From an uncultured Candidatus Saccharibacteria bacterium (GTDB lineage: Bacteria > Patescibacteriota > Minisyncoccia > Phycocordibacterales > CAYSCM01), in contig CAYSCM010000001.1 in NCBI GenBank assembly GCA_964429815.1, forward strand, positions 32,001 through 96,000: a stretch of DNA of 64,000 nt. The letters run 5' to 3'. The notes under the pieces are model-generated. The model made no database searches, was not told the DNA's origin, and worked only from the letters and a program-made list of their open reading frames with translations. Within the stretch, counting starts at the first letter, position 1, and each line of letters opens with the position of its first letter. Below, piece after piece: positions 16,250 through 49,069 of this stretch. A program made the position numbers and the translations under genes.

Positions 16250-17317
16250 TTAAAACGGACCGGTAAAACGCTTATCGGGCACATCGAGCGGCGTCGTGCG
16301 TTTCTTCTCTTCCGCTGCGACGAGCGACTCTAATTTTTTTGTATCCCCCTCAACCATAGAGACCACCATTCTGGCCATATCGATATAGCGCGGGTAGTAC
16401 TCATTGGCAAGCGCAGGCGTTGATGGGCTTGGCAGATCCGGCGCGGTAAGCCGGCGAGGGTTGGTCCGTAGACTGATTGTCGAATCCTCCGCGACTTGTG
16501 TGATTATCTCTCCCGCGACCCCGAAGCTGCGATGCCCGAGATCGGCCACAAGCAGCCGTCCTGTTTTTTTGACTGAGCGTGCTATTGTCTCGGTATCAAG
16601 AGGTTTAAGACTTCGCACATCGACGACCTCGGCGCTCACGCCAACCTTTTGGAGTAACTCCTGCGCACGCAGAGCCTCGTAGGTGAAGTAGGACGTTGTT
16701 ACAAGGGAAACATCGCTTCCCCGGCGCATTATACGAGCCTTGCCGATGGGCACCCTATAGTGACCCTCGGGAACATCTTCAGCAAGATCATGGAGCCATC
16801 GATGATCGATATATATGACCGGATTATCGTCCTCAATCGCGGCGAGCATCAGTCCCTTGGCATCGGAGGGGGTCGCGGGCATCACTACCTTGAGCCCGGG
16901 GATGTGCGCATAGAGGGCTTGGAGATTTTGTGAATGCTGCGGGCCCTGCCCCCATCCCATGCCGATGGTCATTTTCACCGTAAGGGGTACCGATTGCGCT
17001 CCGTTGTACATGTACGACCATTTCGCCGCATTGTTGATCACCTGCTCGATCGCAAGAAGGCTGAAGTCAACTCTCTGGTGCGTTAGGACTGGGCGCATCC
17101 CATTTACCGCCGCACCGATGCAGATCCCGGTTACCGCGAGCTCAGAAGTTGGCATATCAAGTACTCGTTTTGCGCCATGTTTTTTCTGAAGTCCCGTCGT
17201 CGTGCCAAAAATTCCCTTTGGATCAGGGACACCCAATCCTATAAGGAACACCGACTTGTCTTTAGCCAGAGCAAGATCAAATGCTTCTCGTATTGCTTGC
17301 GAATATGTTTTACGCAT
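16250..17317 (-). CDS. TPP-dependent 2-oxoacid dehydrogenase E1 component, beta subunit-like (transketolase-like C-terminal domains)
   Basis: E1-beta-like pyrimidine-binding and C-terminal transketolase domains. ATG 17317 overlaps the upstream alpha-subunit stop by 8 nt (ATGCGTAA), implying translational coupling. The track ORF extends to 17401. Confidence 0.7.
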   Translation of the reverse strand: MRKTYSQAIREAFDLALAKDKSVFLIGLGVPDPKGIFGTTTGLQKKHGAKRVLDMPTSELAVTGICIGAAVNGMRPVLTHQRVDFSLLAIEQVINNAAKWSYMYNGAQSVPLTVKMTIGMGWGQGPQHSQNLQALYAHIPGLKVVMPATPSDAKGLMLAAIEDDNPVIYIDHRWLHDLAEDVPEGHYRVPIGKARIMRRGSDVSLVTTSYFTYEALRAQELLQKVGVSAEVVDVRSLKPLDTETIARSVKKTGRLLVADLGHRSFGVAGEIITQVAEDSTISLRTNPRRLTAPDLPSPSTPALANEYYPRYIDMARMVVSMVEGDTKKLESLVAAEEKKRTTPLDVPDKRFTGPF

Positions 17318-18269
17318 AGAGGTGTTCGGCAAGAGCTTCCCTCTTTGGAAACGGGCTCTTTTCGGCAAAACGGAATGCTCCATCAACCTGTCGAATCGCA
17401 TCGTTTCGGATTTTTTCGATGAGGTCGCTAGAAAGCACCTCTTTCTTCAGGAGCTCACGCTCGAACATCGCGACAGGATCCTTCTTCTTCCACACGGCAA
17501 CCTCCTTCGGATCACGGTACCCAAGCTCGTCATCAAAATTTGGGCCGCAGTGCTCACGGTAGCGGTAGGTCGAAAATTCCAAAAAAACTGGACCCGAACG
17601 GACGGCTTTTCTGGCTTTTGTTGCGGCAGCGAGAACGGTCGAAACATCGTTACCATCGTGGCGCGACGCAGGAATGCCGTGCCCTTTGGCAAGCGCGTAG
17701 ATGGGGCGTTTAGGTTGGCGCTCAGAGAGATGTGTGTACACCGAGAAGCGGTTATCTTCGCACACAAATACAATGGGTAGTTTGTGGAGCGCCGCAAAAT
17801 TGAGACTTTCATGGAAAGCCCCCTCCTCGACGGTACCATCCCCAAAAAACGAAACGATGACGCGGTTTTCCTTCCGGAGCTTCGCTGCAAACGCCGCTCC
17901 CGTTGCAATCGGAATGCTGTTGCCGACGATGGGTGTGGCCCCGCCAAAACCGGCCTTGAGATCAATGAGGTGCATGGAGCCGCCCTTGCCACCGCAGCAG
18001 CCCGTAGCTTTGCCATAGAGCTCAGCCATCATCGCATTGAGGTTGCCGCCTTTAGCGAGGTAATGAGCGTGACAGCGATGGGTACTATACACGAGATCCT
18101 CTGCCGTGAGCGCCGCGCACACCCCAACCGCAACGGCCTCTTGGCCGATCGAGAGGTGGACGGGACAGCGCATCTTTCCTTCGCTATAGCGACGAGCTAT
18201 CGTCTCTTCCGTCGTGCGTATGAGAATGAGCTTGCGGTAGAGCGATAGGAGTGCTTCATTTTTCTTCAT
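17310..18269 (-). CDS. TPP-dependent 2-oxoacid dehydrogenase E1 component, alpha subunit-like
   Basis: GDG...EG TPP-binding motif region (SFFGDGTVEEGAFHESLNFAAL) and PIVFVCEDN motif typical of E1 alpha. No E2 or E3 genes in the window. Confidence 0.7.
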   Translation of the reverse strand: MKKNEALLSLYRKLILIRTTEETIARRYSEGKMRCPVHLSIGQEAVAVGVCAALTAEDLVYSTHRCHAHYLAKGGNLNAMMAELYGKATGCCGGKGGSMHLIDLKAGFGGATPIVGNSIPIATGAAFAAKLRKENRVIVSFFGDGTVEEGAFHESLNFAALHKLPIVFVCEDNRFSVYTHLSERQPKRPIYALAKGHGIPASRHDGNDVSTVLAAATKARKAVRSGPVFLEFSTYRYREHCGPNFDDELGYRDPKEVAVWKKKDPVAMFERELLKKEVLSSDLIEKIRNDAIRQVDGAFRFAEKSPFPKREALAEHLYA

Positions 18270-20353: not shown

Positions 20354-21724
20354 CTAGGAAATAAAACTGAGCACAGCGGAAGCGATGTGAGAGGCCGACA
20401 TTCCGTCGAATTTCCAGCAGTAGCGATCTTTGAAAACTTTGCGCCGGTCGCTGTGAATCTCGGGGTGCGCAAGGTAGATGTTGATCCATTTCGCAAGTTC
20501 TCCCTTGGAGCCCACGAGAGCGGTCGAGCCGATGGAGAGCCAGGAAACTTGATTTTCCTCCAATCTCCAGCGCCTCACGAGGCTGCGCAGGAACGGTACC
20601 TTTGTTTCCCACCCGTCGAAATTGATGGTGATGAGCGGTTTATCGAAAATAGAAGAATCGATGATGATGGAAGAGATGGTATTGATGACCAGCGAGCTCC
20701 AGTAGAGTGAATCGTAAATGTGTTGAAAGAAGCTCATGTCGAGTTCCCCCTCTCGCTTGTCACGCTCAAGGTCATTGAGCTTGGCGGGGCCTGGAATATC
20801 AATAATAAAGTGCTCGTCTGGTGTGAATTTGGAGAGGTCGACGGGGAGGAACGGGTGGAGCCGAACCAAAATTTGCAAATCGTCGGGGATTTTCTTCTCC
20901 GCAAAGAGGTCTTTGAGGATCTGGCAGGTCTGCCAGTCGGTGTCGATGAAAAAATGTCCGGCGGGCGCGAAGAGGACGAGGCGTTTCTTCGGGTCAGCGC
21001 CGATTTTCTTAAAAAATTCTTCACGCGGGGTCGGCTGCATGGTGAGGTACTTTTCAAACTGCGGGACACCTGATAGCACGATCGTGGTCTCTTTGATGTG
21101 GTGGTAGCGCACCATATCCTCTTTCATGACCTCGTTATGGACGATGAGCCGATCCGGCACGAAGCGAGCATAGCTACGGGACGTCGTATTGTCCCACGAA
21201 CGCACCATCGCGACCGTTCTCACCCCGCGTGCTTTGGCATTTTTGAGAAGGAAGAGGTCCGAGTGATTAAAAAGGTCGGTCGCGAACACGACGCTGGGCC
21301 GATATGTCTCAACATATCGATTGAACGTGTCCTGATTATTGAGCCTATAGTCGAGAAAACGCAGGAATTTCTTGACTGGCGTGATCGGAGCGAACAGGGC
21401 CGTGAAGAGAAGCGACGTATAGTACTTCGGCCAGTTACCCGTCTTCGTCCGCGCCTCGAGTTTATGGATCCACATGACGTTCGTGTCGAGGAGCCACTCG
21501 GCCAGTCTTTGGAACAGCCGGTTGCGGAAACTGGTTACGTTCTTTCCAAGTTCCACCCCCTCGACAATGACGCCCGGGTAGCGTATTTTAAAATATTCCT
21601 CCTGGGGTTTTGCAACAAAAAGGACGACCCGCGCCTCCTTGGTGAGAAGATCGAGCACTCCCGTGTTGAGGATATTTTTTGTTATAAACGGATGAAAATC
21701 CGTAATGAAAACCGTCGGCTTCAT
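20354..21724 (-). CDS. hypothetical transferase (possible GT-B-like glycosyl- or glycerophospho-transferase; family unresolved)
   Basis: 456 aa soluble protein inside the glycan locus. Placement and size fit TagF/KpsS-type transferases, but no motif could be matched by eye. Confidence 0.3.
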   Translation of the reverse strand: MKPTVFITDFHPFITKNILNTGVLDLLTKEARVVLFVAKPQEEYFKIRYPGVIVEGVELGKNVTSFRNRLFQRLAEWLLDTNVMWIHKLEARTKTGNWPKYYTSLLFTALFAPITPVKKFLRFLDYRLNNQDTFNRYVETYRPSVVFATDLFNHSDLFLLKNAKARGVRTVAMVRSWDNTTSRSYARFVPDRLIVHNEVMKEDMVRYHHIKETTIVLSGVPQFEKYLTMQPTPREEFFKKIGADPKKRLVLFAPAGHFFIDTDWQTCQILKDLFAEKKIPDDLQILVRLHPFLPVDLSKFTPDEHFIIDIPGPAKLNDLERDKREGELDMSFFQHIYDSLYWSSLVINTISSIIIDSSIFDKPLITINFDGWETKVPFLRSLVRRWRLEENQVSWLSIGSTALVGSKGELAKWINIYLAHPEIHSDRRKVFKDRYCWKFDGMSASHIASAVLSFIS

Positions 21725-25482: not shown

Positions 25483-25977
25483 ATGAGCGTGGATAGACTA
25501 CTAATCTCCAAAGAAACAAAAACCCATGAATGGTATCTTCAAAAAAAAGCCCGCGCCGCAGGCGAAACGGGCTATGATCTCTTCTTCAGCAGACTGCAGC
25601 CGTCGGACTTCAGTTTTGTCCTAGAGAAAGAGGCGGGCCGAGTCCTAATTGTAGGGACGAATTCTCAAATTCGCAATTTTTTTGCGGACCAAGAAAAAAT
25701 CCTTCGCGAGGTCTGCACAAGACGTGCCATAGCAAATCCGACGTTCATGGCCGCTGCCTCAACCAACTGGTTCTGGCAAAAATTCTTCAACTATGGAAAT
25801 TTTTTGGACAACCATCCCGAGGGAGCGACCCTTCCCGCGTTGGTTATTGCCTCGGGCGACATCCGCCACTACGACGACTGGGGTCGCGGCACCACTATCG
25901 ACAAGATCGATACGTGGCTCTCTGGCCATTGCGAGCGCTTCGGTGTACCGATTGAGTACATCAAAAGCGCCAATTAA
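25483..25977 (+). CDS. hypothetical protein (164 aa), stand-alone transcription unit
   Basis: Has its own strong promoter and RBS, and is bracketed by two near-identical terminator hairpins. No recognisable domain. Confidence 0.55.
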   Translation: MSVDRLLISKETKTHEWYLQKKARAAGETGYDLFFSRLQPSDFSFVLEKEAGRVLIVGTNSQIRNFFADQEKILREVCTRRAIANPTFMAAASTNWFWQKFFNYGNFLDNHPEGATLPALVIASGDIRHYDDWGRGTTIDKIDTWLSGHCERFGVPIEYIKSAN

Positions 25978-25986
25978 TTAAGACTT

Positions 25987-26019
25987 CGGCCGCACCCATA
26001 GGGTGCGGCCGATTTTTAC
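25987..26019. terminator. bidirectional rho-independent terminator (copy 2 of the repeated hairpin)
   Basis: CGGCCGCACCC-ATA-GGGTGCGGCCG followed by ATTTTTAC. Lies between convergent genes. Confidence 0.65.
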
Positions 26020-26996
26020 TTTCCGGGATTTTTTTCGTACCAGGCGATTGTTTTTTTGAGGCCATCTCGTAGTGCCGTCACCGCTTCCCAGCCGGTATCG
26101 CGTTTTATTTTTGAGACGTCCGGAACACGTCGCTTCACGCTTCCCGTGGGACCTGGTTTGCGTTCAATAACGTTCGGCCTCCATCCGGCACGTTCGAACA
26201 AGACTTCGACGAGTTCCCCGATGTTAGTCTCGACGCTCGTACCGATATGATACGTCTCCCCGTCCGTTTTAGAACTTTCCATTACCGCCTGCATCGCCTC
26301 GACCGCATCATCAATGTAGCAAAATGAGCGCGTCTCATCGGCGCCGTAGAGGGCGAACGGATCTTCGCGTCGCTCGATGCGCCCCAACACATCGGGAATC
26401 ACGTGGTGGCCGGAGCGGGGTCCGTAGAAATTATGGGGGCGTACAACGACCGTGCGAAGTCCATACTGTTTTGCATAACTGTTGAAGAGTAGTTCTCCTA
26501 TCAACTTAGTACCGGCATACGACCACCGGGGATTACGAGGGTCAGCGATGACAAGCGGGACATTTTCAAGCGTAGGCAGCGGCAAGATGCCGAAGGCTTC
26601 AAGGGCACCGGCATATGCCTCGTTCGACGAGGTAAAAAGTATTTTTGACCCCTTCTTGTTCTTCTTAAACCACTCGAGCGCATGGACATTAAGAAGAAGG
26701 GCGGAGCGGAGAATTTCCGCAGGTATCTCATAAAAAAGCTTGGTCGAGTTAATGGCGGCTAGATGGTAGACGTCGTCAAAATCGAAGCCGAGCTTCTCCC
26801 AAGCTCTTGCTTGCGTGAGGTCGCACTGTAGGAACACAACTCCCCTCTCCTTAGTGAGAGCCCGGAACTCTTCGTCATGCTGCCCGAGCGCAAAGTTATC
26901 TACCAGGGTGAGCTCGTACCCAGCACCCTGTAATCGCTTAGCTAGGTGGTAGCCGACAAATCCTGCTGCCCCGGTTATCAAAACTCTTTTTGCCAT
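26016..26996 (-). CDS. NAD-dependent NDP-sugar epimerase/dehydratase
   Basis: VLITGAAGFVGYHL Rossmann motif and YAGTK catalytic motif. ATG 26996 chosen. The track ORF extends to 27080. Confidence 0.6.
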   Translation of the reverse strand: MAKRVLITGAAGFVGYHLAKRLQGAGYELTLVDNFALGQHDEEFRALTKERGVVFLQCDLTQARAWEKLGFDFDDVYHLAAINSTKLFYEIPAEILRSALLLNVHALEWFKKNKKGSKILFTSSNEAYAGALEAFGILPLPTLENVPLVIADPRNPRWSYAGTKLIGELLFNSYAKQYGLRTVVVRPHNFYGPRSGHHVIPDVLGRIERREDPFALYGADETRSFCYIDDAVEAMQAVMESSKTDGETYHIGTSVETNIGELVEVLFERAGWRPNVIERKPGPTGSVKRRVPDVSKIKRDTGWEAVTALRDGLKKTIAWYEKNPGK

Positions 26997-27907
26997 GATA
27001 GTCTTCGCTTTATCGCGATCCGAAGAGCCTTGAGCGCTTCCCGACCGGAAACGATCGGCCTTGGCCACTCCGAGAACCATTCAGGAAGGATAGGGAACCG
27101 CTTCTCCGCTCTGAGTTGCACGTTATTTGCCTTGATGGCTCCGCCGAGAAGTTCCATGCTCTTCCCCGCTCGGCCGTGCGCATAGAAAAAGGCGCGCATA
27201 TCTTTCGGCAGACAATGCCCGCCGAAGGCTTTGCCATAGCGGAGGTACGGCTTTCGTTCGAACAAAAAATTGACGACGTTCTCTATTTTGGAGAGCTCCT
27301 TTTGGCTGGTCGGGGTTCCCATCGCGTTACCGAATTCATTCACGAATGCGATACGCATGGCATTCCAGACATTCGACAAATATTTTATGTACGATGCTTC
27401 TTCGGGGGTGCCTGCGAAAGATTTCACCGAACGTTTACGCCACTCATCGAGAAAGCTCGGTTTCTTTTTCCCGGTGCGTGCGCCAACGACGAAGTAGTAC
27501 GGATTGAGGCATTCCTCTACCGCCTTCTTTTCGTGCAAAAATTCAGGAACATAGAAATCAAATGCGAGTTTATCCAGTGATTGTGGTATGACGGTAGAGC
27601 GTAGTATGACCGTCCCCTTCGCTCCCTTCAGGGTCTCAAGGGCTTTTTCTATCGGGGAAACATCCTGAATGCCTTCTTCGGATACGCGATCGCCCACACA
27701 GACCACGTACACGGTGTTCGGGCCATCGTGTTCACGTGCGTGCGAGAGAGAAGCGATTTCCGAGCATTCTTTCTGATATTTTGGGACGTATTTGAGCGAA
27801 GTCTCTGCCACGTCATAGCAAAAAACCGGATATCTCATGATCCGCAGCGAGATGGCATTTGCTTGGCCGACCCAACCGTATCCAACGATGACAATCGTCT
27901 CCTTCAT
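26978..27907 (-). CDS. UDP-glucose/GDP-mannose dehydrogenase-family protein, short (lacks the usual C-terminal domain)
   Basis: N-terminal IVGYGWVGQ NAD-binding motif. Catalytic-cysteine region GGHCLPKD. Only 309 aa. Overlaps the downstream epimerase start by 19 nt. Confidence 0.55.
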   Translation of the reverse strand: MKETIVIVGYGWVGQANAISLRIMRYPVFCYDVAETSLKYVPKYQKECSEIASLSHAREHDGPNTVYVVCVGDRVSEEGIQDVSPIEKALETLKGAKGTVILRSTVIPQSLDKLAFDFYVPEFLHEKKAVEECLNPYYFVVGARTGKKKPSFLDEWRKRSVKSFAGTPEEASYIKYLSNVWNAMRIAFVNEFGNAMGTPTSQKELSKIENVVNFLFERKPYLRYGKAFGGHCLPKDMRAFFYAHGRAGKSMELLGGAIKANNVQLRAEKRFPILPEWFSEWPRPIVSGREALKALRIAIKRRLSWQKEF

Positions 27908-27936: not shown

Positions 27937-29073
27937 TTAGGTAACGGCCCGAAGGGACTCGAGAATGAGGCGCGCCCGCGCTTCCCAGCTGTAGCGTTTC
28001 GCGAGTTCGCGAGCGACCCGACCTCGATCCACAAATTTGCCCCGAAGTCCTTCGAGCACCGTTTTCAAAAGAATTTCCCCATCGCCAGCGGGAACGAATG
28101 CCGCCTCCCGGTCGGAGAGAATTTCCCGCACCGAGGGAAGATCCGTCGTGACAATAGGAATTCCGCTCGCCATGTAGCTGAACATTTTAAGCGGTGACAT
28201 AAACTTGGCGTAGTGTTCCGTGTTTGGATAGTTCATGACGTGCACGTTGGCGGCTCGGAAATAACCGACCATGTCCTTTTGTGATGGAGTAGCATTAATA
28301 TGAAATTGACTATCTCGAAGACCGGCAGAGTGTGCCATATCGATCGCACGAGCCCTATCGACCTGCGACATACCAGCAAGAAGTAAATACGCGTTTGGTT
28401 CCTCATGGAGTAGTTTCGGAAACAGACGTATAAGCTCCTCGACGCCCTTGCCCCTTCCCATGGTGTGGAGTGCCCCTACATACCCGACCACCTTCGCTTC
28501 GGAGGGGATGCCGTTGCCCCGACGCCACACTCCTACATCAAACGGCTCACGGTAGGGTCGCACATCGACTCCATCGTGAGCTACCACGATCTTCCCAGGA
28601 TCCACCCCTTCGCTCTTCAGAAGCTCTGCGTGTGCTCCCGTGATGGCAACAATGAGCCGAGCACGTTGAAATAGAATTCGAGCGAATCGATTCAGTTTTT
28701 TGGTGTGAACTTCCCACACTACCCTCCCCGTTTTTGCGACAAGAGAAAGCGCCACCTCATCACGACCGTAGATGATATCCGCTCTCGAACTGCGAGCGTA
28801 GAGGTACGAAGCGAAAGCAAACGTTACCACCTGTACGAAAAAGCCAGCGCTCCCGAATCGCACGAGGTCGAGCGAGAAAAGCCTTACGATGCGAAACTGC
28901 GTGCGCACATCATAAAACTCAAACGGATCGACAGCAAGCCGACCGAAGCGCCACGGTACTGCGAGAATCACCTCATGGCCTTCACGGGCAAAGGCCTCGC
29001 ACATCTTCACGACCTGGAGGCCATGCGCCTTCTCGGTCGGCAGTCGGATGTTGGCGACGTAGAGGATTTTCAT
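27937..29073 (-). CDS. glycosyltransferase family 4
   Basis: GT4 architecture. The N-terminus MKILYVANIRLPTEKAHG is typical. Confidence 0.65.
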   Translation of the reverse strand: MKILYVANIRLPTEKAHGLQVVKMCEAFAREGHEVILAVPWRFGRLAVDPFEFYDVRTQFRIVRLFSLDLVRFGSAGFFVQVVTFAFASYLYARSSRADIIYGRDEVALSLVAKTGRVVWEVHTKKLNRFARILFQRARLIVAITGAHAELLKSEGVDPGKIVVAHDGVDVRPYREPFDVGVWRRGNGIPSEAKVVGYVGALHTMGRGKGVEELIRLFPKLLHEEPNAYLLLAGMSQVDRARAIDMAHSAGLRDSQFHINATPSQKDMVGYFRAANVHVMNYPNTEHYAKFMSPLKMFSYMASGIPIVTTDLPSVREILSDREAAFVPAGDGEILLKTVLEGLRGKFVDRGRVARELAKRYSWEARARLILESLRAVT

Positions 29074-29876
29074 AGACTCCTGCGACGCTTATAGAGAAAA
29101 TTGAGCCAGCCGAACGCTAGGTTAAATGCGAGCTGCCGTGTCCACGAAAGATTCTCCTTCCAGGACTCATCGAGCTCTATTTTCTCACTCGCTTCCCCCT
29201 TCATACGGTTGCCACTTATTTGATGATGCGGAAAGGCCCGAAAAGAGAGCATGGCGGGTTCGTAGGAGAGGCCGACCGCTTCCAAGATGCGGGCGAGGGA
29301 TTCCTGCGGATGCGCAACAAGCTCCTCATAGCGCAAGAACAGGTAGCGCGCTTTGACCCTCCTGCGCAGAAGCTCGACTTTGGCGTTCATGAAAAACCAG
29401 CGCGAGAGCGAGAACCACACATGGGCTCCATATTTACGCAGATAGGATGAAAATACCCCGCGCCCGTCTCGCACTACGTGCACGATTACGGGGTCGGGGA
29501 GCGCCCGGCACATGAGTTCGGTATAGTCAGCGTTCTTTGATGAGTCGACAACGACCGAGGCCCCCTTGGTAGCGGCAGCCTTGGTATAGATGGTACGGAC
29601 ACGTTCTCGGTACTGCGCGATGTCGACCGCCTTCCCTGTCTTGGCGTAACGATAATTTTTTGAGCCGAATAGAAAACCGCTTTTGCTTCGGGCTACGTCA
29701 AAGAGTTCCCCTTTCGGGAGAATGTCCCGCCAAAAAGGGTCACTGGTGGGGTCCGAATCCTCCGAGACGAGCTCGCCGATGCCGATGACTTTCGAATGTG
29801 AGTCGAGAAGAAGGTCCAGGAGTGTTGAGCCACTGTGCCCACTTCCGAGGATAAAGAGTACTTGGGGGATTCGCAT
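29070..29876 (-). CDS. sulfotransferase family protein (second, PAPS-dependent)
   Basis: FILGSGHSGSTLL (5'-PSB) and VVRDGRGVFSS (3'-PB) motifs. First ATG at 29876. The track start at 29924 is TTG. Confidence 0.6.
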   Translation of the reverse strand: MRIPQVLFILGSGHSGSTLLDLLLDSHSKVIGIGELVSEDSDPTSDPFWRDILPKGELFDVARSKSGFLFGSKNYRYAKTGKAVDIAQYRERVRTIYTKAAATKGASVVVDSSKNADYTELMCRALPDPVIVHVVRDGRGVFSSYLRKYGAHVWFSLSRWFFMNAKVELLRRRVKARYLFLRYEELVAHPQESLARILEAVGLSYEPAMLSFRAFPHHQISGNRMKGEASEKIELDESWKENLSWTRQLAFNLAFGWLNFLYKRRRSL

Positions 29877-29960
29877 GAGAGTGAGTGTTACACGTAAACT
29901 AAATCGACATCGGGAAAGTTGCAATGAGGAGCCTGCGTTTTACTTGTGGCGCTGAGGGGA

Positions 29961-29966
29961 TATAAT
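29961..29966 (+). promoter_or_regulatory. -10 hexamer TATAAT 8 nt upstream of an ATG (near-leaderless transcript likely)
   Basis: TATAAT at 29961..29966 and ATG at 29975. Weak -35 candidates upstream. Confidence 0.35.
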
Positions 29967-29974
29967 CCTTACCT

Positions 29975-31243
29975 ATGGACGACCGGGAACGTAGGGTGTG
30001 CCGTATATCCGGCGAGCCTCTCACCGAACTTTTCACACTCGGCGAACTTTACATTTCCGATTTCATCCCGCGAGAGGGAAAGCCCCGTATGAAAAACAAG
30101 GTTGAACTTAAGCTTATGCTTGCACCAAAATCCGGTTTGGTACAGCTCGCGCACACCGCCCCTTTCGATGAGATGTACGGCGAGTATTGGTACCGCTCGG
30201 GCACCAATGAGACCATGCGTCGGGAGCTTAAGGACATCGCAGATTCCGCTTCAAGACTTATGCGACTTGCGAAGGGAGACGTGGTAATTGACATCGGCTG
30301 TAATGACGGGACGCTTTTGAGTTTCCTGGGCACCGAGGTCGTCCGCATAGGCTTTGACCCCGCACGCGGAGACTATCCCGAGCTTGCAAAAAAACATGCA
30401 GACCTTGTCGTGACCGACTACTTCACCTGCGCTGCGTTCAAAAAATCGAGCTTTGGCAAGCAAAGGGCTAAGGTTATCACATCGATCGCGATGTTTTATG
30501 ACCTCGAGAAGCCCGATGAGTTCGTTGCGGATATTGCCGAGGCTCTCGACGATGAAGGACTTTGGATAATACAGATGAGCTACACTCCGCTCATGCTCAA
30601 GCAGTTGGCCTTTGACAACATCTGCCACGAGCACCTTGAGTACTATACGCTCCATTCGCTCCAGTACCTCCTCGCGAAGCATGGGCTCAAGGTCGTTGAC
30701 TGTCAGCTCAATGACGTCAATGGAGGGAGTTTCAGGATCTATATCCGCAAGGAGAAAGCTACTCCCGCCACATTTGCGACCGCGCCATACCGTTATGTAG
30801 CGCAATTCCGGGTCGATTCCATACTCGCGTATGAGAAAACCCTCAACCTAACCGACCCGAAGACCTACCTCGACTTTTTCGAACACGCGAAACGATTGAA
30901 AAAAGAAACCGTCGACTTTATCGTATCCGAAAAGAAAAAGGGTAAGAAGATCTGGGCGTATGGGGCCTCCACCAAGGGCAATACACTCCTGCAGTGGTTC
31001 GGTCTCAATGAGACCCACATCGACGGCATAGCGGAGCGCTCTCCGGCAAAGTTCGGGCTCAAGACAGTGGGCAGTAATATCCCAATTTATTCAGAAGAGG
31101 AGATGCGGGCCGCAAAGCCCGATTACCTTTTGGTCCTGCCGTGGCACTTTATCGAAGAGTTCGTGCGGCGAGAACAGGCGTTCCTCAACGGCGGCGGGAA
31201 ATTCATAGTTCCCTGCCCGAAGTTCGAAATAGTTGGCGCCTAG
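29975..31243 (+). CDS. NDP-hexose C-methyltransferase (TylC3/NovU-type sugar C-methyltransferase)
   Basis: SAM-binding VIDIGCNDG motif. Conserved C-terminal C-methyltransferase domain (IWAYGASTKGNTLL...PDYLLVLPWHF...GGKFIVPCP). Confidence 0.7.
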   Translation: MDDRERRVCRISGEPLTELFTLGELYISDFIPREGKPRMKNKVELKLMLAPKSGLVQLAHTAPFDEMYGEYWYRSGTNETMRRELKDIADSASRLMRLAKGDVVIDIGCNDGTLLSFLGTEVVRIGFDPARGDYPELAKKHADLVVTDYFTCAAFKKSSFGKQRAKVITSIAMFYDLEKPDEFVADIAEALDDEGLWIIQMSYTPLMLKQLAFDNICHEHLEYYTLHSLQYLLAKHGLKVVDCQLNDVNGGSFRIYIRKEKATPATFATAPYRYVAQFRVDSILAYEKTLNLTDPKTYLDFFEHAKRLKKETVDFIVSEKKKGKKIWAYGASTKGNTLLQWFGLNETHIDGIAERSPAKFGLKTVGSNIPIYSEEEMRAAKPDYLLVLPWHFIEEFVRREQAFLNGGGKFIVPCPKFEIVGA

Positions 31244-31246
31244 TCG

Positions 31247-32251
31247 TTATTCCCTCCTCTGAGCCGCCTCTACCATTTCTTCGACTAGTTCCTTGAAGGA
31301 AATCTTTGGCTCCCATTCGAGCTCCTCAGCAATTTTTGCGTTGTCTCCACGGCGCGGATACATTTCCGCAGGGCGATAGAACTCGCTCGCCACGCGCACA
31401 CGCACAGTACCGGACGGGTCCACTCCGACCTCATATTGCCCTTCCGCTTTCCACGCGATATCCATACCAAGACGTTTCGCAGCTATTTCGATAAACTCCC
31501 GTACGGTATGGGCCCTGCCAGAGGCTATGACGTAGGACTCCGCCCTATCGTGCTGCAGGGTCTTCCAAACGGCTTGGACGACGTCTCTGGCGTGTGACCA
31601 ATCGCGCCTCACATCGAGATTCCCTATCCGCAACTCCTGCTCTTTCCCCAGAGAAATGCGCGCGAGCGTCGTCGCTATTTTTTGGGTCACGAATTCCCTT
31701 CCACGACGAGGACTCTCGTGATTAAAAAGAATTCCAGACACGGAAAAAATATGGTGGTCACGCCGATATGCCTCGATAAGGTTATGCGCAGCTGTTTTTC
31801 CGACGCCGTAGGGGTTGCAGGGCCGAAAGGGCGTATTCTCATTTTGCGGGCTTTCTGACGCTTCGCCGTACATTTCTGCCGATGATGCTTGGAACAGTCT
31901 CGATCCAGGCAAAAATTCTCGCATCGCCTCGAGGATAGTGAGGGGAACGAACGCAGTGCTCTCAAGGGTTTTGCGCGGGTTCTCCCAGGGGTTTGCCACC
32001 GTGCTCACCGAGGCAAGATTATATATTTCATCGGGACAGACGACTTTGAGCTGTTCGCGTAAAAAGTGAGAGTCGGTCACATCCCCTGCGGAGAGCGCGA
32101 CCCCGGTAACGTCTTTAAGATTTTCCTTCGTCGAACCTGCGCGTTCAATGCCGAACACCCGATATCCCTTTTGAAGCAAAAGTTCGGCCAAGTAGGAACC
32201 GTCTTGGCCGCCGATCCCCGTGATAAGGGCTGTTGTTGCCTTCTCTCTCAT
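31247..32251 (-). CDS. gmd: GDP-mannose 4,6-dehydratase
   Basis: LITGIGGQDGSYLAELLL, YGVGK and GILFNHESPRRG are hallmark Gmd motifs. Confidence 0.8.
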   Translation of the reverse strand: MREKATTALITGIGGQDGSYLAELLLQKGYRVFGIERAGSTKENLKDVTGVALSAGDVTDSHFLREQLKVVCPDEIYNLASVSTVANPWENPRKTLESTAFVPLTILEAMREFLPGSRLFQASSAEMYGEASESPQNENTPFRPCNPYGVGKTAAHNLIEAYRRDHHIFSVSGILFNHESPRRGREFVTQKIATTLARISLGKEQELRIGNLDVRRDWSHARDVVQAVWKTLQHDRAESYVIASGRAHTVREFIEIAAKRLGMDIAWKAEGQYEVGVDPSGTVRVRVASEFYRPAEMYPRRGDNAKIAEELEWEPKISFKELVEEMVEAAQRRE

Positions 32252-33283
32252 CTATTCATCTCCCCCCTTCTTATGGCCCGCGATAAGTCGTAGGTCCGAT
32301 TCAACCATCATCTCTACGAGATCTTGAAACGATACCTTCGGCTTCCACCCCAATTCCCGCAGGGCTTTGGTGGAATCGCCCTCAAGAGCCTCAACCTCCT
32401 GTGGTCGGAAGAAGCGCGAATTGACTTCGATGATACATTTTCCGTGCTGATCGTATCCCTTTTCTTCGAGTCCCTTCCCCCTCCACGTAATGTCGATCCC
32501 AAGCGCATGACACACCGCTGCGACAAGATCTCTCACGGTGTGGGACTTTCCTGTGGCGATAACATAATTCGAGGGTCGCGCAGGCTGGAGCATCATCCAC
32601 ATCGCCTCGACGTAATCTCCCGCAAAGCCCCAATCGCGTTTGGCCCCAAGGTTCCCTAGCCTTACTTTTTCCTGAAGTCCAAGTTTGATTTTCACCAATG
32701 AGTGGGTAAGTTTGCGTGTCACGAAGTGCTTGCCGCGGCGAGGACTTTCATGGTTGAACAATATTCCGGAGACAGCGTACTTACCTTCTTTTTGCCAGGC
32801 ACTCACAAGCTCATGTGAATGCAGTTTCGAGACCGCATACGGGCTTACTGGCTGAAATGGGCTCGCCTCGCTCTGCGGTGGCGGGGTGCTGCCGAACATT
32901 TCGCTAGTCGAAGCCTGATACACTTTCACTTTCGGGTTGCGACGGAATGCTTCAGTGCCAAGGCGTTCGAGGCCTTTGAAGTTTATATCGTCGGTCTCAT
33001 CGGGACAGAGAAACGAAACACCGACATGCGATTGTGCCGCAAGATTGTAGATCTCATCAGGTTTGGCTTCCTCAAGCGCTCGCACGATGGTCGGCATGTC
33101 GCGCATATTCCCATACATGAGATCGATCTCACCCTTGATATAGAGATCCTCTATCCGCACGAAAGGGTCCGTGCTGGTGCGGCGCATAAATCCGAATACT
33201 CGGTACCCTTTTCGTATCAGAAGCTCAGCCAGGTAGGAACCGTCCTGCCCCGTGATGCCTGTTATAAGAGCCCGTTTTTGCAT
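32252..33283 (-). CDS. gmd: GDP-mannose 4,6-dehydratase paralogue (tandem second copy)
   Basis: LITGITGQDGSYLAELLI, YAVSK and GILFNHESPRRG. Shares many residues with the neighbouring copy. Confidence 0.75.
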   Translation of the reverse strand: MQKRALITGITGQDGSYLAELLIRKGYRVFGFMRRTSTDPFVRIEDLYIKGEIDLMYGNMRDMPTIVRALEEAKPDEIYNLAAQSHVGVSFLCPDETDDINFKGLERLGTEAFRRNPKVKVYQASTSEMFGSTPPPQSEASPFQPVSPYAVSKLHSHELVSAWQKEGKYAVSGILFNHESPRRGKHFVTRKLTHSLVKIKLGLQEKVRLGNLGAKRDWGFAGDYVEAMWMMLQPARPSNYVIATGKSHTVRDLVAAVCHALGIDITWRGKGLEEKGYDQHGKCIIEVNSRFFRPQEVEALEGDSTKALRELGWKPKVSFQDLVEMMVESDLRLIAGHKKGGDE

Positions 33284-33291
33284 AGGGAAAA

Positions 33292-34515
33292 CTATACACT
33301 AGCGAGCGCCTCCCTGATAACTTCCTCCACCCGTTCACGGGAAAACAAGCTCTGCGAACACGCAACCGCCGCACGGGACATGGCCGCACGGACGGCGACA
33401 TTGCGTAGCGTTGAAAGCGCGGAGAGATACTCCTTAGCCGTCTCGGCATAGAACACTTCCTTCCCGTTTTCGAAGGGATAACCGACCGTACTGTACTTGG
33501 ACGTTATGAGCGGGACGCCACGCACCAGGGGTTCGAACACTTTTCCCTGCATGCCGACGCGCTTCGGGGATGGGACTAGGGCGATATCCATCGAACGCAC
33601 GTAGGTCGGAAATTCTTCGGAGGGGATGAAGCCGTCGTGGATGATCGTTTTTCCGTCGATATATTTCCGAAAATAATCGGGGAGTCGTGTGCCGGAGATA
33701 TGGAGCTCGTAGGCACCTGGAGAAGATCTTGCAAGTTCTGGCATGATGCGCCCCAGAATGAACTGAAGTGCCTTGCGGTTGTGGGATATGGCGTAGGAAG
33801 ATCCCAAAAAGAGCACCCGCAGCGGTTTCATCTCGCGAATAGGGTGAGATTCCCCTATGAGAGCGGGAAGCCATCGAAGCGGCAGCACTTCGACTTTCCG
33901 TGCTCCTAGACGCGCGTAGGCGGCTGCGTCGTTGGGATTGAGCGCTAGGATAAGTGTACTTTTTTTAGAGACCAGCCACTCGCTCATGAGTTTTATGAGA
34001 TAGCGTGGAATAGTTAGAAGCGAACGTTCGTGTTCCTCGAGGAAATGACGTGCTTCGAAATTTATCGATCGCGTTATTATCGGGATTCCGCGCGAACGAA
34101 CTTCTCCATAGAGTGGCCACAGATAGGTGTAGTCGAACCAAACAACGTCCGGCTGAAATGTGTTGAGTTCTTCCGCCAGTACCCTCCTCGTCAGCGGGTC
34201 ACTATACTCAAACGCCGCCCCGTCCCAAAGCCGCGGATCGATGAGACGCCGCAGGAAGCGCCCGAGACGCTCCTGGGTCGACCTCTCTCGGGCGAACGAG
34301 TAGGTGACTGGCCGTATTGGAATTCCCCACGTCCTCTGCGCTTCCTCCACCGCGCTCCTATCCGAAGGGACGACCATGACGATGACCCGCACCCTGCAGC
34401 CAAGCTTTTGGAGAAGCTTGATGCCCATGCCCCGATCAAGTTCATCGGCTCCCTGCATGGAAAAGGGGGTGCGAGGCGTTACCACCAGCACTTTCTTGCC
34501 GCGGATCCCTTCCAT
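33292..34515 (-). CDS. glycosyltransferase family 4
   Basis: GT-B/GT4-like organisation. C-terminal E...E region FEPLVRGVPLITS. Confidence 0.6.
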   Translation of the reverse strand: MEGIRGKKVLVVTPRTPFSMQGADELDRGMGIKLLQKLGCRVRVIVMVVPSDRSAVEEAQRTWGIPIRPVTYSFARERSTQERLGRFLRRLIDPRLWDGAAFEYSDPLTRRVLAEELNTFQPDVVWFDYTYLWPLYGEVRSRGIPIITRSINFEARHFLEEHERSLLTIPRYLIKLMSEWLVSKKSTLILALNPNDAAAYARLGARKVEVLPLRWLPALIGESHPIREMKPLRVLFLGSSYAISHNRKALQFILGRIMPELARSSPGAYELHISGTRLPDYFRKYIDGKTIIHDGFIPSEEFPTYVRSMDIALVPSPKRVGMQGKVFEPLVRGVPLITSKYSTVGYPFENGKEVFYAETAKEYLSALSTLRNVAVRAAMSRAAVACSQSLFSRERVEEVIREALASV

Positions 34516-34516: not shown

Positions 34517-36331
34517 TTAGGTTTTTATGGAAAATGCTTTCGCCCACAGCTGGAACACCAGGAGACTCCACAGGCTTTGGAGATGATATCCGCCTTGCTG
34601 GTGGTCCTTGCGAAGCCGTTCTATCTCATGCCAGTTAAAAAGGCTTTTTGTTTCGACGTAAAATGATGGAGAAAGTACCTCCCTGGCAAATGCTGCGACG
34701 TCGGGACGACGCAGCCACTTTGCGGCTGGAGAAAACCACCCCCTTTTTTCCTGGCTGAGGAGAAACTCCGGCACATGACCGCGGAGCGCCTCTTTGTAGA
34801 GTATTTTTTTATCAAACGACGAAATGAGATCGCTCTGGGATAATCGATCCGCGAAGGAAAGAAGCTCCAGGTCGAGGAGCGGCACGCGCACCTCAAGCCC
34901 CGCGGCCATCCCCATCTTATCGGTACGCAGTAGCGCCTCATCGACAAGCCAATTCTTTCTGTCGACGGCCATGAACTGTTTTTCAAATGACTTCTCTACC
35001 GTCGGGAATCTGTTGCTCAGATATTCGAGGACGGGCTCACTATTGTTGTCACCTTTTTCAAGAATCGCTTGCACAGTATCCTCCGTTTGCAACATGAACC
35101 ACGCGAAACGCTCTCCTCCCTCTTCTGTCGACAGGGGTTTTAGTTTTTTATTGAGCAACCCGAGCTTTGAAAATAGCGGAATGCGACGAAGTAAACTTAG
35201 CTGATGTGATTTGCGATAACGCTCATATCCACCAAAGAGTTCATCGCCCCCGTCACCTGCGAGAGCTACTGCAACCTGCGGTTTTGTGAATTCCGCAAGT
35301 TTGAGCATAGAAAGCGACGTCGGATTCCAGTTTGGATCATCGAGATGCCAAACCGCCTTTTCGAGATAGGGGATAACCTCTGTGGCGGAAAAGAGGACAC
35401 TATGATGTTCAACACCAAACTGTGCCGCAGCGCGCTTGGCAAGTTCAAGATCTGCATTGAATTTTTCTTTTTGCTCTCCCTCCTCAAGTTCAAACCCTAC
35501 GCTAAACGTTTTCAGTTTGTGTCCCGTCTCAAAGAGAGCTGCCAGGATAGCATTTGAATCTAGGCCTCCCGAAAGATAGAGCCCTACTGGGCGATCAGAA
35601 ACAAGTTGGCGACTTACGCCCCCCTTCAACACTTCCCATAGCTTGTGCGCGCGGTCTGTTCGGTCCGCTGGCAGGAAAATCTCTCTCTCATACGCTTGGT
35701 ATGTGCTAAGTGATATTTCGCCACGACGGTACTTGAGCACCTGACCTGGTTGAATACGAGATATGCTCTCAAACATTGTCGTGGGTCCTGGCGTATAGAG
35801 AAATCGGAAATAGAGATTGAGCGAATCGCGATTAAGTTTTCGAGTAATTCCCGTTTCGAGGAGCGCCTTGATCTCCGAAGAAAAAAAGAGCTCGTTATCC
35901 TTTTCTAGATAGTAAAGAGGCTTGATGCCGACCGGGTCGCGCACGAGATAGAGAGTTTCTTCTCTCTCGTCCCAGAGCGCAAAAGCAAACATGCCATTGA
36001 AACGTGAGAGGCAGTCAACTCCCCATCTCTCCCACGCCGCCAAGATAACTTCGGTATCGCTCTCGCTCCGAAAGGGGTAGGCCGGCAATTCTTTCTTGAT
36101 ATCGCGGTAGTTGTAGAGTTCTCCGTTGTAGGTAATGGTGAATCGCCCGTCGTGGCTTGCCATCGGCTGTTTGCCACCCTCGGAGAGGTCAATGATAGCG
36201 AGGCGATTGTGCCCCAAGGTTACTTTCCCAGCCCAAAGCCCCGTGCCGTCGGGGCCCCGGTGGTTGGTTTCTTTATTCATCCGCTCAACAAGAGCGGAGT
36301 GACTTCCCGTACATCCGTTAATGCCGCACAT
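34517..36331 (-). CDS. asnB: asparagine synthetase (glutamine-hydrolysing)-family amidotransferase, likely glycan amidation (WbpS-like)
   Basis: N-terminal MCGI nucleophile cysteine. SGGLDS PP-loop ATP pyrophosphatase motif. 604 aa. Confidence 0.75.
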   Translation of the reverse strand: MCGINGCTGSHSALVERMNKETNHRGPDGTGLWAGKVTLGHNRLAIIDLSEGGKQPMASHDGRFTITYNGELYNYRDIKKELPAYPFRSESDTEVILAAWERWGVDCLSRFNGMFAFALWDEREETLYLVRDPVGIKPLYYLEKDNELFFSSEIKALLETGITRKLNRDSLNLYFRFLYTPGPTTMFESISRIQPGQVLKYRRGEISLSTYQAYEREIFLPADRTDRAHKLWEVLKGGVSRQLVSDRPVGLYLSGGLDSNAILAALFETGHKLKTFSVGFELEEGEQKEKFNADLELAKRAAAQFGVEHHSVLFSATEVIPYLEKAVWHLDDPNWNPTSLSMLKLAEFTKPQVAVALAGDGGDELFGGYERYRKSHQLSLLRRIPLFSKLGLLNKKLKPLSTEEGGERFAWFMLQTEDTVQAILEKGDNNSEPVLEYLSNRFPTVEKSFEKQFMAVDRKNWLVDEALLRTDKMGMAAGLEVRVPLLDLELLSFADRLSQSDLISSFDKKILYKEALRGHVPEFLLSQEKRGWFSPAAKWLRRPDVAAFAREVLSPSFYVETKSLFNWHEIERLRKDHQQGGYHLQSLWSLLVFQLWAKAFSIKT

Positions 36332-44260: not shown

Positions 44261-44290
44261 GAGTATAGCAATTTTGCCGCCATCGCGATG

Positions 44291-44320
44291 CAAAAAGCCC
44301 CGCACTCTTTTGCGGGGCTT
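44291..44320 (-). terminator. rho-independent terminator (minus strand)
   Basis: AGCCCCGCA / TGCGGGGCT stem with a T-run on the minus strand. Confidence 0.6.
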
Positions 44321-49057: not shown

Positions 49058-49069
49058 AGGTACGGGGGG

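What the first reader, a model, noticed from the sequence alone, without database searches (positions are those of the whole stretch)
29070..29876. Sulfotransferase no. 2, divergently transcribed from the sugar C-methyltransferase gene
This is a second, unrelated sulfotransferase-family sequence (GSGHSGSTLL / RDGRGV motifs), about 23 kb from the first. Two distinct sulfotransferases suggest sulfation at two positions or on two sugars. The shared 100-bp divergent promoter region with the TylC3-like gene (29877..29974) hints at co-regulation of methylation and sulfation.
Basis: partly seen in the sequence, partly recalled or inferred. Interest (0 to 1): 0.5.

Follow-up and report, generated by a model that had tools for sequence, protein, structure and literature searches.

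The report
His-loop glycan sulfotransferase in a CPR bacterium
The gene is a real sulfotransferase sitting first in a four-gene sugar-building operon of an uncultured ultra-small (CPR) bacterium, ordinary in fold but carrying a histidine where all characterised sulfotransferases have a catalytic lysine or arginine, and its pairing with the neighbouring methyltransferase looks accidental.

Summary

It is only distantly related to sulfotransferase 1 at 5391..6299 (22% identity), not unrelated.

It is the first gene of a translationally coupled operon: ST, GT4, UDP-sugar-dehydrogenase-like, epimerase. A hairpin at 25986..26012 closes the operon.

The head-to-head arrangement with the TylC3-like C-methyltransferase is real (98 bp) but not conserved. 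Only 1 of 84 related loci has such a neighbour. The closest relative reads AsnB-ST-GT4-dehydrogenase, so a 4.6-kb block was inserted here. Co-regulation is unsupported.

The 5'-phosphosulfate loop reads GSGHSGST. His replaces the defining Lys/Arg in 110 of 120 homologues. The 3'-phosphate motif, the Glu base candidate and the fold are kept.

In five CPR relatives the homologue lies within about 1 kb of a fused ATP-sulfurylase/APS-kinase. Two of these also carry a CysQ-like phosphatase. This argues for PAPS use. No PAPS genes lie in this window.

Verdict: a probable PAPS-dependent glycan O-sulfotransferase of a large, uncharacterised His-loop clade, of moderate interest.

The parts
29070..29876 (-). 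Sulfotransferase 2 CDS, 268 aa, soluble, no signal peptide or TM segment
29823..29846 (-). 5'-phosphosulfate-binding (PSB) loop GSGHSGST, residues 11-18. His14 takes the place of the canonical catalytic Lys/Arg.
   Evidence: His14 aligns to the Arg of PRSGST/PRSGTT in CurM ST, OLS ST and TPST. Among 120 homologues position 14 is H 110, R 5, K 3, Y 2.
29772..29774 (-). Glu35, candidate catalytic base
   Evidence: Glu in 118 of 120 homologues. It aligns to the Glu of 'PPEL' in CurM and OLS ST.
29535..29546 (-). DSSK motif, residues 111-114. The Lys lies two residues later than in CurM 'VDKSP'.
   Evidence: D111 in 118/120 and K114 in 112/120. Profile alignment to 4gbm and 4gox.
29445..29471 (-). 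3'-phosphate-binding motif RDGRGVFSS, residues 136-144 (Arg136, Ser144)
   Evidence: R136 in 119/120 and S144 in 109/120. It aligns to TPST 'VRDGRASVHS'.
29202..29228 (-). Clade-specific C-terminal motif HHQISGNRM, residues 217-225 (Gly222 and Asn223 nearly invariant). Role unknown.
   Evidence: G222 in 119/120 and N223 in 117/120.
29877..29974 (.). 98-bp spacer between the divergent start codons
   Evidence: Sequence. Only one consensus promoter-like site, on the + strand.
29939..29966 (+). Promoter-like site TTTACT-16-TATAAT (10 of 12) for the C-methyltransferase. The -10 element ends 8 nt before the ATG, so the mRNA would be nearly leaderless.
   Evidence: Not above chance: 3 sites found against 3.4 +/- 2.0 in shuffles.
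29975..31243 (+). NDP-hexose 3-C-methyltransferase (TylC3/TcaB9/MtmC-like), divergent neighbour
   Evidence: PF08484 155.8 bits. PDB 4rv9 E 1.8e-46 and TcaB9 E 1e-32.
27937..29073 (-). GT4 glycosyltransferase. Its ATG overlaps the ST stop codon (ATGA) and follows an AGGAG.
   Evidence: Sequence. PF00534, PF13439. The same ST-GT4 overlap occurs in L086 and L003.
26978..27907 (-). UDP-glucose/GDP-mannose dehydrogenase-like protein, 309 aa, N-terminal and central domains only
   Evidence: PF00984, PF03721. 73% identical to the gene downstream of GT4 in L086.
26016..26996 (-). NAD-dependent sugar epimerase/dehydratase, last gene of the operon. The likely start is MAKRVLITG.
   Evidence: PF01370 150 bits. 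Alternative start.
25986..26012 (.). 12-bp, GC-rich hairpin between convergent genes, the likely terminator of the ST operon
31247..34515 (-). Two GDP-mannose-4,6-dehydratase paralogues plus a glycosyltransferase. Together with the C-methyltransferase they form the block inserted between AsnB and ST.
   Evidence: Pfam. Synteny with L086 and L003.
34517..36331 (-). AsnB-like glutamine amidotransferase, the ancestral upstream neighbour of the ST
   Evidence: PF00733 238 bits. 48% identical to the gene directly upstream of the ST in L086.
5391..6299 (-). Sulfotransferase 1, with canonical PSB loop GPERTGTT
   Evidence: PF00685 80.2 bits. 22% identity to ST2. PDB 3rnl E 3e-30, NST and 3-OST about 1e-11.

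Best explanation
The gene encodes a cytoplasmic, PAPS-dependent O-sulfotransferase. It decorates a sugar of the cell-surface glycan made by this 45-kb cluster, most likely on the residue or intermediate handled by the GT4 glycosyltransferase to which it is translationally coupled.

Shown:
- the sulfotransferase fold;
- an intact 3'-phosphate motif (Arg136, Ser144);
- an intact glycine/Ser/Thr 5'-phosphosulfate loop;
- a conserved Glu35 at the position of the Glu that follows the PSB loop in CurM/OLS sulfotransferases;
- the operon structure ST-GT4-dehydrogenase-like-epimerase.

Inferred:
- PAPS is the donor.
- His14, standing where Lys/Arg normally contacts the bridging oxygen of the leaving phosphate, does the same job as a protonated imidazole.
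- Lys114 (DSSK) substitutes for the Lys that sits two residues earlier in CurM/OLS sulfotransferases.
- The acceptor is a lipid-linked oligosaccharide, sulfated on the cytoplasmic face before Wzx flipping.

The divergent C-methyltransferase is a neighbour by insertion, not a demonstrated partner.
For: Family and fold:
- PF13469 79.3 bits against a cutoff of 27.
- A profile of 40 homologues hits OLS ST at 1.5e-20, CurM ST at 8.7e-20 and TPSTs at about 1e-13.
- The AF2 model has pLDDT 94.6 and pTM 0.92.
- The first 27 Foldseek hits are all sulfotransferases.

Conserved residues among 120 homologues: G16 and T18 120/120, E35 118, D111 118, K114 112, R136 119, S144 109.

His14 is exchanged for R (5) or K (3) in a few members. 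A Sinorhizobium pSymB member of the same clade has GYGRSGST. This argues that His is functionally equivalent to Lys/Arg.

Donor:
- In CPR relatives the His-type ST lies beside or within about 1 kb of a fused ATP-sulfurylase/APS kinase: L005, L008, L009, L010, L013.
- A CysQ-like PAP phosphatase is nearby in L005, L009 and L006.
- L042 carries a fused ATP-sulfurylase/APS kinase and L017 an APS kinase, each with a CysQ-like gene.
- An APS kinase and a conserved 3'-phosphate motif only make sense with PAPS.

Acceptor:
- The ST stop and GT4 start overlap (ATGA) behind an AGGAG.
- The same ST-GT4 coupling occurs in L086 and L003. GT4 genes are the commonest neighbours, in 22 loci.
- Wzx and Wzy_C flank the ST module in L009 and L010.
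- The window holds Wzx (12216..13496) and an initiating sugar transferase (56237..57586).
Against: - The defining PSB Lys/Arg is absent. No solved or characterised sulfotransferase found here has His at that position (review PMC11625862).
- No ATP sulfurylase, APS kinase or CysQ lies in the 64-kb window.
- I could not inspect the rest of the 501,704-bp contig. A search with a CPR PAPS synthase showed no listed hit on a contig of that length.
- The nearest structural relatives (TPST, CurM/OLS ST) do not sulfate sugars.
- No biochemical data exist for any member of the clade, and the acceptor sugar is unknown.
Confidence: 0.68

Rival explanations
1. It is an active PAPS-dependent sulfotransferase, but the acceptor is not a glycan. 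It could be a protein or peptide tyrosine (as for TPST), a lipid or a small metabolite.
Against: The gene is translationally coupled to a GT4. Neighbourhoods in every related locus examined consist of glycan genes: GT4, Wzx, Wzy_C, sugar epimerases, AsnB. No precursor-peptide or PKS gene was seen nearby.
Confidence: 0.12
2. The His-for-Lys/Arg change marks a different chemistry. The possibilities are a non-catalytic PAP(S)-binding protein, use of another donor, or a covalent sulfo-histidine (ping-pong) intermediate like that of PAPS-independent aryl sulfotransferases (the latter mechanism is recalled from memory).
For: The defining PSB Lys/Arg is missing and His is conserved in 110 of 120 homologues. 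The Lys of the 'VDK' strand is also displaced, to DSSK. No PAPS genes lie in the window.
Against: - All other PAPS-contacting motifs are conserved under strong selection, so loss of function is unlikely.
- R or K replaces His in 8 of 120 members and in the Sinorhizobium homologue. That would not be tolerated if His were a nucleophile.
- APS kinase and CysQ adjacency in relatives points to PAPS turnover.
Confidence: 0.08
3. One reading: the sulfotransferase and the C-methyltransferase share a bidirectional promoter and are co-regulated because they modify the same sugar.
For: The two genes are head to head with a 98-bp spacer. A 10-of-12 sigma-70-like site lies in the spacer. Both belong to one glycan cluster.
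Against: - The adjacency is seen in 1 of 84 related loci.
- The closest relative has AsnB directly upstream of the ST on the same strand.
- The promoter-like site faces only the methyltransferase, and such sites are no more frequent than in shuffles.
- The best minus-strand candidate found by eye, TTGCAA-17-TAGTTT, matches 7 of 12.
Confidence: 0.1

Closest known systems
Tyrosylprotein sulfotransferases TPST1/TPST2 (PDB 5wri, 3ap1/3ap3)
   Different: TPSTs have Arg in the PSB loop (PRSGTT) where this protein has His. TPSTs are Golgi membrane-anchored enzymes acting on acidic peptides (established knowledge). This is a 268-aa soluble bacterial protein in a glycan operon. Identity is 16-19%.
CurM and OLS 'activating' sulfotransferase domains (PDB 4gbm, 4gox)
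   Different: They are domains inside polyketide synthase modules and sulfate a beta-hydroxyacyl-ACP (established knowledge). They have PRSGST, VDKSP and LVRHPYS where this clade has GHSGST, VDSSK and LVRDGRG.
Rhizobial glycan sulfotransferases NodH, NoeE, LpsS/KpsS
   Same: These are bacterial PAPS-dependent sulfotransferases acting on sugars of Nod factors, LPS or capsule. NodH is filed under PF13469 with an Arg-x-Gly PSB (PMC11625862). An uncharacterised Sinorhizobium meliloti pSymB ORF (L089 5641..6579) belongs to the same clade as this protein, sharing DSSK, RDGRG, GNR and the CxCG insert.
   Different: The match to the NoeE model is 29.1 bits against a cutoff of 500 and covers only residues 170-212. 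The pSymB homologue has Arg, not His, in the loop. None of the characterised enzymes was shown here to be a close relative.
Sulfotransferase 1 of this window and the heparan-sulfate NST/3-OST type (PF00685)
   Same: Same superfamily and same cluster. Both are presumed to sulfate the same glycan.
   Different: Identity is 22%. ST1 has the canonical GPERTGTT loop, and its solved relatives are 3rnl, NST and 3-OST. ST2 reaches only 22.5 bits on PF00685, over 40 residues.
Cyanobacterial synechan sulfotransferases (xss cluster, PMC8205485)
   Same: A Wzx/Wzy-type bacterial cluster containing sulfotransferases for a sulfated extracellular polysaccharide. His-loop homologues occur in Synechococcus and Gloeocapsopsis genomes.
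   Different: I did not compare sequences with XssA or XssE. No homologue was found on a cyanobacterial plasmid in PLSDB.

Membership tests
Pfam PF13469 Sulfotransfer_3 | Whole-protein HMM score above the gathering threshold | tested here: met
   79.3 bits against a cutoff of 27, E 6.5e-22, residues 7-207 against profile positions 2-216 of 216.
PAPS-dependent sulfotransferase superfamily | Sulfotransferase alpha/beta fold with a central parallel sheet | tested here: met
PAPS-dependent sulfotransferase superfamily | Catalytic Lys or Arg in the 5'-phosphosulfate-binding loop (PMC11625862) | tested here: not met
   His14 aligns to the Arg of CurM, OLS and TPST. His is present in 110 of 120 homologues, with R/K in 8. 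The rest of the loop (G13, G16, S17, T18) is conserved.
PAPS-dependent sulfotransferase superfamily | 3'-phosphate-binding strand-turn-helix with Arg and a helix Ser | tested here: met
   R136 in 119/120 and S144 in 109/120. RDGRGVFSS aligns to TPST RDGRASVHS.
PAPS-dependent sulfotransferase superfamily | Catalytic base (His or Glu) near the acceptor site | tested here: inconclusive
   Glu35 is present in 118/120 homologues and aligns to the Glu of CurM and OLS 'PPEL'.
PAPS-dependent sulfotransferase superfamily | Uses PAPS as sulfuryl donor | not testable with these tools
   Indirect evidence only. A fused ATP-sulfurylase/APS kinase, CysQ-like genes or both lie next to or near homologues in L005, L008, L009, L010, L013, L006, L017 and L042.
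TPST / CurM-OLS sulfotransferase clade | Lys immediately after the Asp/Asn of the central strand (CurM/OLS 'VDKSP') | tested here: not met
   The aligned position is Ser112. Lys lies two residues later, as DSSK, in 112/120 homologues.
CurM/OLS activating sulfotransferase | Domain embedded in a PKS module next to ACP and thioesterase | tested here: not met
   It is a stand-alone 268-aa protein whose neighbours are glycan genes.
Pfam PF00685 Sulfotransfer_1 (NST/3-OST/cytosolic type) | Full-length HMM match | tested here: not met
   22.5 bits against a cutoff of 22, but only residues 168-207 match.
NoeE (NCBIfam NF052394) | Equivalog score of at least 500 bits | tested here: not met
   29.1 bits, residues 170-212 only.
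NDP-hexose 3-C-methyltransferase (TylC3/TcaB9), for the neighbouring gene | Zn-binding N-domain, SAM methyltransferase domain and C-methyltransferase C-domain | tested here: met
   PF08484 155.8 bits and PF13489 55.8 bits. PF08421 scores 30.3 bits, just under its cutoff of 31.3. PDB 4rv9 E 1.8e-46 and TcaB9 E 1e-32, full length.

The most novel reading that the evidence does not exclude
Ultra-small CPR/Patescibacteria bacteria coat themselves with multiply sulfated (and methylated) surface glycans. These would be made by a large, uncharacterised sulfotransferase clade that uses His instead of Lys/Arg in the PAPS loop and is fed by a dedicated ATP-sulfurylase/APS-kinase/CysQ module. If so, the sat/cysC genes that surveys of CPR genomes have read as 'sulfate reduction' (PMC7906910) would serve sulfation of the cell surface. 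That could bear on how these episymbionts attach to hosts.
Probability: 0.45. Interest if true: 0.55.

Novelty: new variant of a known kind. Interest (0 to 1): 0.38.

Why it matters
Sulfated polysaccharides are considered rare in bacteria, and few bacterial glycan sulfotransferases have been characterised (PMC11625862, PMC8205485).

This gene belongs to a clade of about 4,800 clusters at 50% identity with E<=1e-30. The clade breaks the textbook rule that the PAPS loop carries a catalytic Lys/Arg. A single enzymology experiment could show whether His does the same job.

In CPR bacteria the clade sits beside PAPS-making and PAP-recycling genes inside surface-glycan clusters. This gives a concrete, testable alternative reading of the sat/cysC genes reported in these tiny genomes. 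It also points to sulfated surfaces in organisms that live attached to other cells.

For this locus alone the result is mostly a corrected annotation. The operon partner is the GT4, not the methyltransferase.

Tried and rejected
1. Looking for PAPS synthesis in the same genome. No ATP sulfurylase, APS kinase or CysQ appeared in the window by Pfam or by a profile of 40 CPR PAPS synthases. A database search with the Kaiserbacteria PAPS synthase listed only 120 of 8000 hits, none on a 501,704-bp contig. The question stays open.

2. Naming the organism. Exact look-ups of 12 window proteins returned no names or accessions. The GTDB-representative scan did not return the window genome. Placement in CPR rests on the named homologues and the unlinked rRNA genes.

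3. Literature. Full-text searches for the motif strings, and for sulfotransferase together with CPR or Patescibacteria, found nothing relevant. One query was malformed.

4. The PLSDB plasmid search found a Sinorhizobium pSymB homologue, but the record carries no annotation there.

5. The AlphaFold-database fold library was not available. Model coordinates were not exposed, so I could not measure distances from His14, Glu35 or Lys114 to a docked PAPS.

6. The TTG start at 29924 was rejected because no homologue has that N-terminal extension.

8. The promoter scan gives no significant signal for either gene.
Full report
**Observation**

The minus-strand ORF 29070..29876 is real. It runs from an ATG at 29876 to a TGA at 29070-29072 and encodes 268 aa. 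A longer TTG-initiated version (29924) is listed mechanically. All homologues start at the M-(R/K)-(I/V)-x-V-x-F-I-L-G of the ATG start, so I use 29876.

GSGHSGST is residues 11-18 and RDGRGVFSS is residues 136-144.

GC3 (0.62) matches the neighbouring genes. The protein has no hydrophobic segment (maximum 19-aa Kyte-Doolittle mean 1.43). It is therefore a soluble cytoplasmic protein.

**Family**

Pfam PF13469 Sulfotransfer_3 scores 79.3 bits against a gathering score of 27, covering nearly the whole profile.

- A single-sequence search of the PDB finds CurM ST and TPST2.
- A profile of 40 homologues finds the OLS and CurM sulfotransferase domains at 1.5e-20 and 8.7e-20, and the TPSTs at about 1e-13.
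- An AlphaFold model built on that alignment is confident (pLDDT 94.6, pTM 0.92).
- The first 27 Foldseek matches in the PDB are all sulfotransferases.

The non-sulfotransferase P-loop reading is rejected.

**Relation to sulfotransferase 1**

ST1 is 5391..6299 (-), 22.8 kb away. It scores 80.2 bits on PF00685 and has the canonical loop GPERTGTT. Its solved relatives are 3rnl and the heparan-sulfate NST and 3-OST enzymes.

ST1 and ST2 align at 22% identity, E 7e-4. They are distant members of one superfamily from different subfamilies. 'Distinct' is right; 'unrelated' is not.

**Operon and neighbours**

The ST stop codon and the start of the GT4 glycosyltransferase 27937..29073 overlap as ATGA. 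An AGGAG lies just upstream. Downstream follow:

- a UDP-glucose/GDP-mannose-dehydrogenase-like gene (26978..27907) that has only the N-terminal and central domains;
- an NAD-dependent epimerase/dehydratase (26016..about 26996);
- a 12-bp GC-rich hairpin at 25986..26012, which lies between this operon and the convergent gene 25483..25977.

The ST is therefore the first gene of a four-gene unit.

The whole window from about 400 to 41,700 is one large surface-glycan cluster. It contains many GT4s, Wzx, sugar dehydratases, aminotransferase, several methyltransferases, a radical-SAM enzyme, TPP and E1-type enzymes, TagD/TagF-like genes and AsnB. An initiating sugar transferase lies further on at 56237..57586.

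**The divergent C-methyltransferase**

The gene 29975..31243 (+) is indeed a TylC3/TcaB9/MtmC-type NDP-hexose 3-C-methyltransferase. It is head to head with the ST across 98 bp. The pairing, however, is not conserved.

- Among 84 related loci with up to 10 kb of flank, a C-methyltransferase homologue occurs in one. GT4 homologues occur in 22.
- In the closest relative (62% identity, L086) the order is AsnB-ST-GT4-dehydrogenase-like, all on one strand with overlapping ends. L003 has AsnB-ST-GT4-GT4-epimerase.
- In the window the AsnB homologue is at 34517..36331. A glycosyltransferase, two GDP-mannose-dehydratase paralogues and the C-methyltransferase (29975..34515) have therefore been inserted between AsnB and the ST.
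- The consensus scan finds one promoter-like site in the spacer, TTTACT-16-TATAAT on the + strand. Its -10 ends 8 nt before the methyltransferase ATG. It finds none on the minus strand, and the number of sites in the region equals that in shuffles.

Co-regulation is therefore neither shown nor suggested by conservation.

**The unusual feature**

In every solved relative the residue two positions before the invariant Gly of the 5'-phosphosulfate loop is Arg or Lys: PRSGST in CurM and OLS, PRSGTT in the TPSTs. The HMMER alignments place His14 there. A recent review states that the working definition of a sulfotransferase rests on the conserved PSB lysine/arginine, the PB-helix serine and the sheet architecture (PMC11625862).

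His is not an accident of this sequence.

- Among the 120 best homologues position 14 is H 110, R 5, K 3, Y 2.
- Among 126 further cluster representatives it is H 100 and R 8. Sixteen did not match the search pattern, and the two F calls are probably pattern mis-hits.
- The rest of the PAPS site is strongly conserved: G16 and T18 120/120, R136 119, S144 109.
- A Glu (118/120) sits where CurM and OLS have the Glu of PPEL. It lies 21 residues after position 14, the same spacing as R78-E99 in TPST2 (those numbers are from memory).
- The Lys that follows the central-strand Asp in CurM/OLS (VDKSP) is Ser here, with a Lys two residues later (DSSK, 112/120).
- A Sinorhizobium meliloti pSymB ORF shares all the clade motifs (CxCG insert, DSSK, RDGRG, GNR, DETW) but has GYGRSGST.

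Occasional reversion to R/K within an otherwise identical active site suggests that His14 plays the same electrostatic or proton-donor role. It argues against His acting as a nucleophile.

**Donor**

I could not test PAPS use directly. Gene neighbourhoods of relatives are informative.

- In a Kaiserbacteria genome the 41%-identical homologue is followed immediately by a fused PUA-ATP-sulfurylase-APS-kinase and an inositol-monophosphatase-family (CysQ-like) gene.
- A profile of CPR PAPS synthases run over all fetched loci finds the fusion beside or within about 1 kb of the His-type ST in five CPR loci: L005, L008, L009, L010, L013. It also finds it in one proteobacterial locus (L042), and an APS kinase in a Woesearchaeota locus (L017).
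- CysQ-like genes occur in L005, L009, L006, L017 and L042.
- In L009 and L010 the ST-PAPS synthase pair (followed by CysQ in L009) is flanked by a Wzx flippase, and in L010 also by a Wzy_C/O-antigen-ligase protein.
- Three more ST homologues share their longest-contig length with a PAPS synthase hit (38321, 8535, 20166).

An APS kinase, a PAP phosphatase and a conserved 3'-phosphate motif are what a PAPS-dependent enzyme needs. None of these genes is in the window. I could not read the remainder of the 501,704-bp contig.

**Taxonomy and distribution**

- Named close homologues come from Candidatus Magasanikbacteria, Kaiserbacteria and Paceibacterota.
- The window has 23S-5S and 16S genes separated by 9 kb of protein genes.
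- All 12 window proteins looked up are singletons at 90% identity, and the records give them no name.
- The His-loop clade is broad. 173 of 179 pattern matches in GTDB species representatives are relatives, including cultured Synechococcus, Rubrivivax, Lewinella and Mesonia.
- An exhaustive profile search counts 4,843 clusters at 50% identity with E<=1e-30.
- Related CPR clusters carry two or three sulfotransferases of different subfamilies side by side.
- I found no paper on sulfotransferases or sulfated glycans in CPR bacteria. Genome surveys read CPR sat/cysC as sulfate reduction (PMC7906910 and PMC9698310).

**Verdict**

The gene is best read as a PAPS-dependent glycan O-sulfotransferase coupled to a GT4 (confidence about 0.68).

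The proposed link to the C-methyltransferase is not supported. What is new is the clade-wide His in the catalytic loop, together with the recurrent ST-PAPS synthase-CysQ module in CPR glycan clusters. It is a variant of a known enzyme kind rather than a new kind, and the interest is moderate.

Noticed in passing
window 50519..51980, 60916..61021, 61464..64000 (all minus strand): The rRNA genes are unlinked and in unusual order. 23S and 5S come first. About 9 kb of protein genes follow (FtsW/RodA, GT4, sugar transferase, epimerase, SecD, SecF), and then 16S. The 16S match spans 1462 nt for 1533 model positions.
   Followed up: partly
window 48617..50518: A 1.9-kb stretch lies between 16S and tRNA-Ile(GAT)/tRNA-Leu(CAG), with no Rfam family above threshold. 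It holds only small ORFs, some of which look like membrane proteins from their sequence (49070..49510, 146 aa; 49562..49771, 69 aa).
   Followed up: partly
loci L005, L008, L009, L010, L013 (CPR genomes): The His-loop sulfotransferase lies beside or within about 1 kb of a fused ATP-sulfurylase/APS kinase. In L005 and L009 a CysQ-like phosphatase follows. L009 and L010 are flanked by a Wzx flippase, and L010 also by Wzy_C. This suggests that CPR sat/cysC genes, read in the literature as sulfate reduction, supply PAPS for glycan sulfation.
   Followed up: partly
alignment A1; homologues P0004-P0120: 76 of 120 homologues carry a CxCG-x(3-8)-C-xx-W insertion right after the candidate catalytic Glu, possibly a metal-binding knuckle. 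The window protein and its nearest relatives (P0002, P0003, P0006, P0010, P0014) lack it but keep the Trp.
   Followed up: partly
window 29975..34515: A block made of the C-methyltransferase, two tandem GDP-mannose-4,6-dehydratase paralogues and a glycosyltransferase looks like an insertion between AsnB and the ST, relative to L086 and L003.
   Followed up: yes
window 8597..10366, 16250..18269, 2565..4307: The cluster holds an acetolactate-synthase-like TPP enzyme, a split E1 alpha/beta (transketolase-like) pair and a 580-aa radical-SAM protein. Together with the C-methyltransferase these hint at branched-chain or otherwise heavily modified sugars.
   Followed up: no
window 14734..15231 and 20354..21724: A TagD-like cytidylyltransferase and a TagF-like CDP-glycerol glycerophosphotransferase are present. 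They suggest a teichoic-acid-like glycerophosphate element in the glycan of this organism.
   Followed up: no
window 26978..27907: The UDP-glucose/GDP-mannose-dehydrogenase-like protein is short (309 aa). It matches only the N-terminal and central domains, with no C-terminal UDP-binding domain hit. It is 73% identical over the 106 aligned residues to its cut-off counterpart in L086.
   Followed up: no
window 41719..44305: A lamin-tail-domain protein and a TraG/TrwB-like type IV coupling ATPase sit at the edge of the glycan cluster.
   Followed up: no
window 52387..53211: This listed 274-aa ORF has GC3 0.42 and an Arg/Ser/Pro-rich translation. It overlaps secF and lies close upstream of the 16S gene. 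It is probably not a gene.
   Followed up: no
protein P0249: A 1298-aa representative matches the sulfotransferase profile in 7 stretches. It may be a multi-domain or tandemly repeated sulfotransferase.
   Followed up: no
locus L089 5641..6579 (Sinorhizobium meliloti 1021 pSymB, NC_003078.1 about 803 kb): This 312-aa ORF, unannotated in PLSDB, belongs to the same clade but has Arg in the loop (GYGRSGST). An ORF I did not scan lies next to it. It is a culturable, genetically tractable organism in which the clade could be studied.
   Followed up: partly
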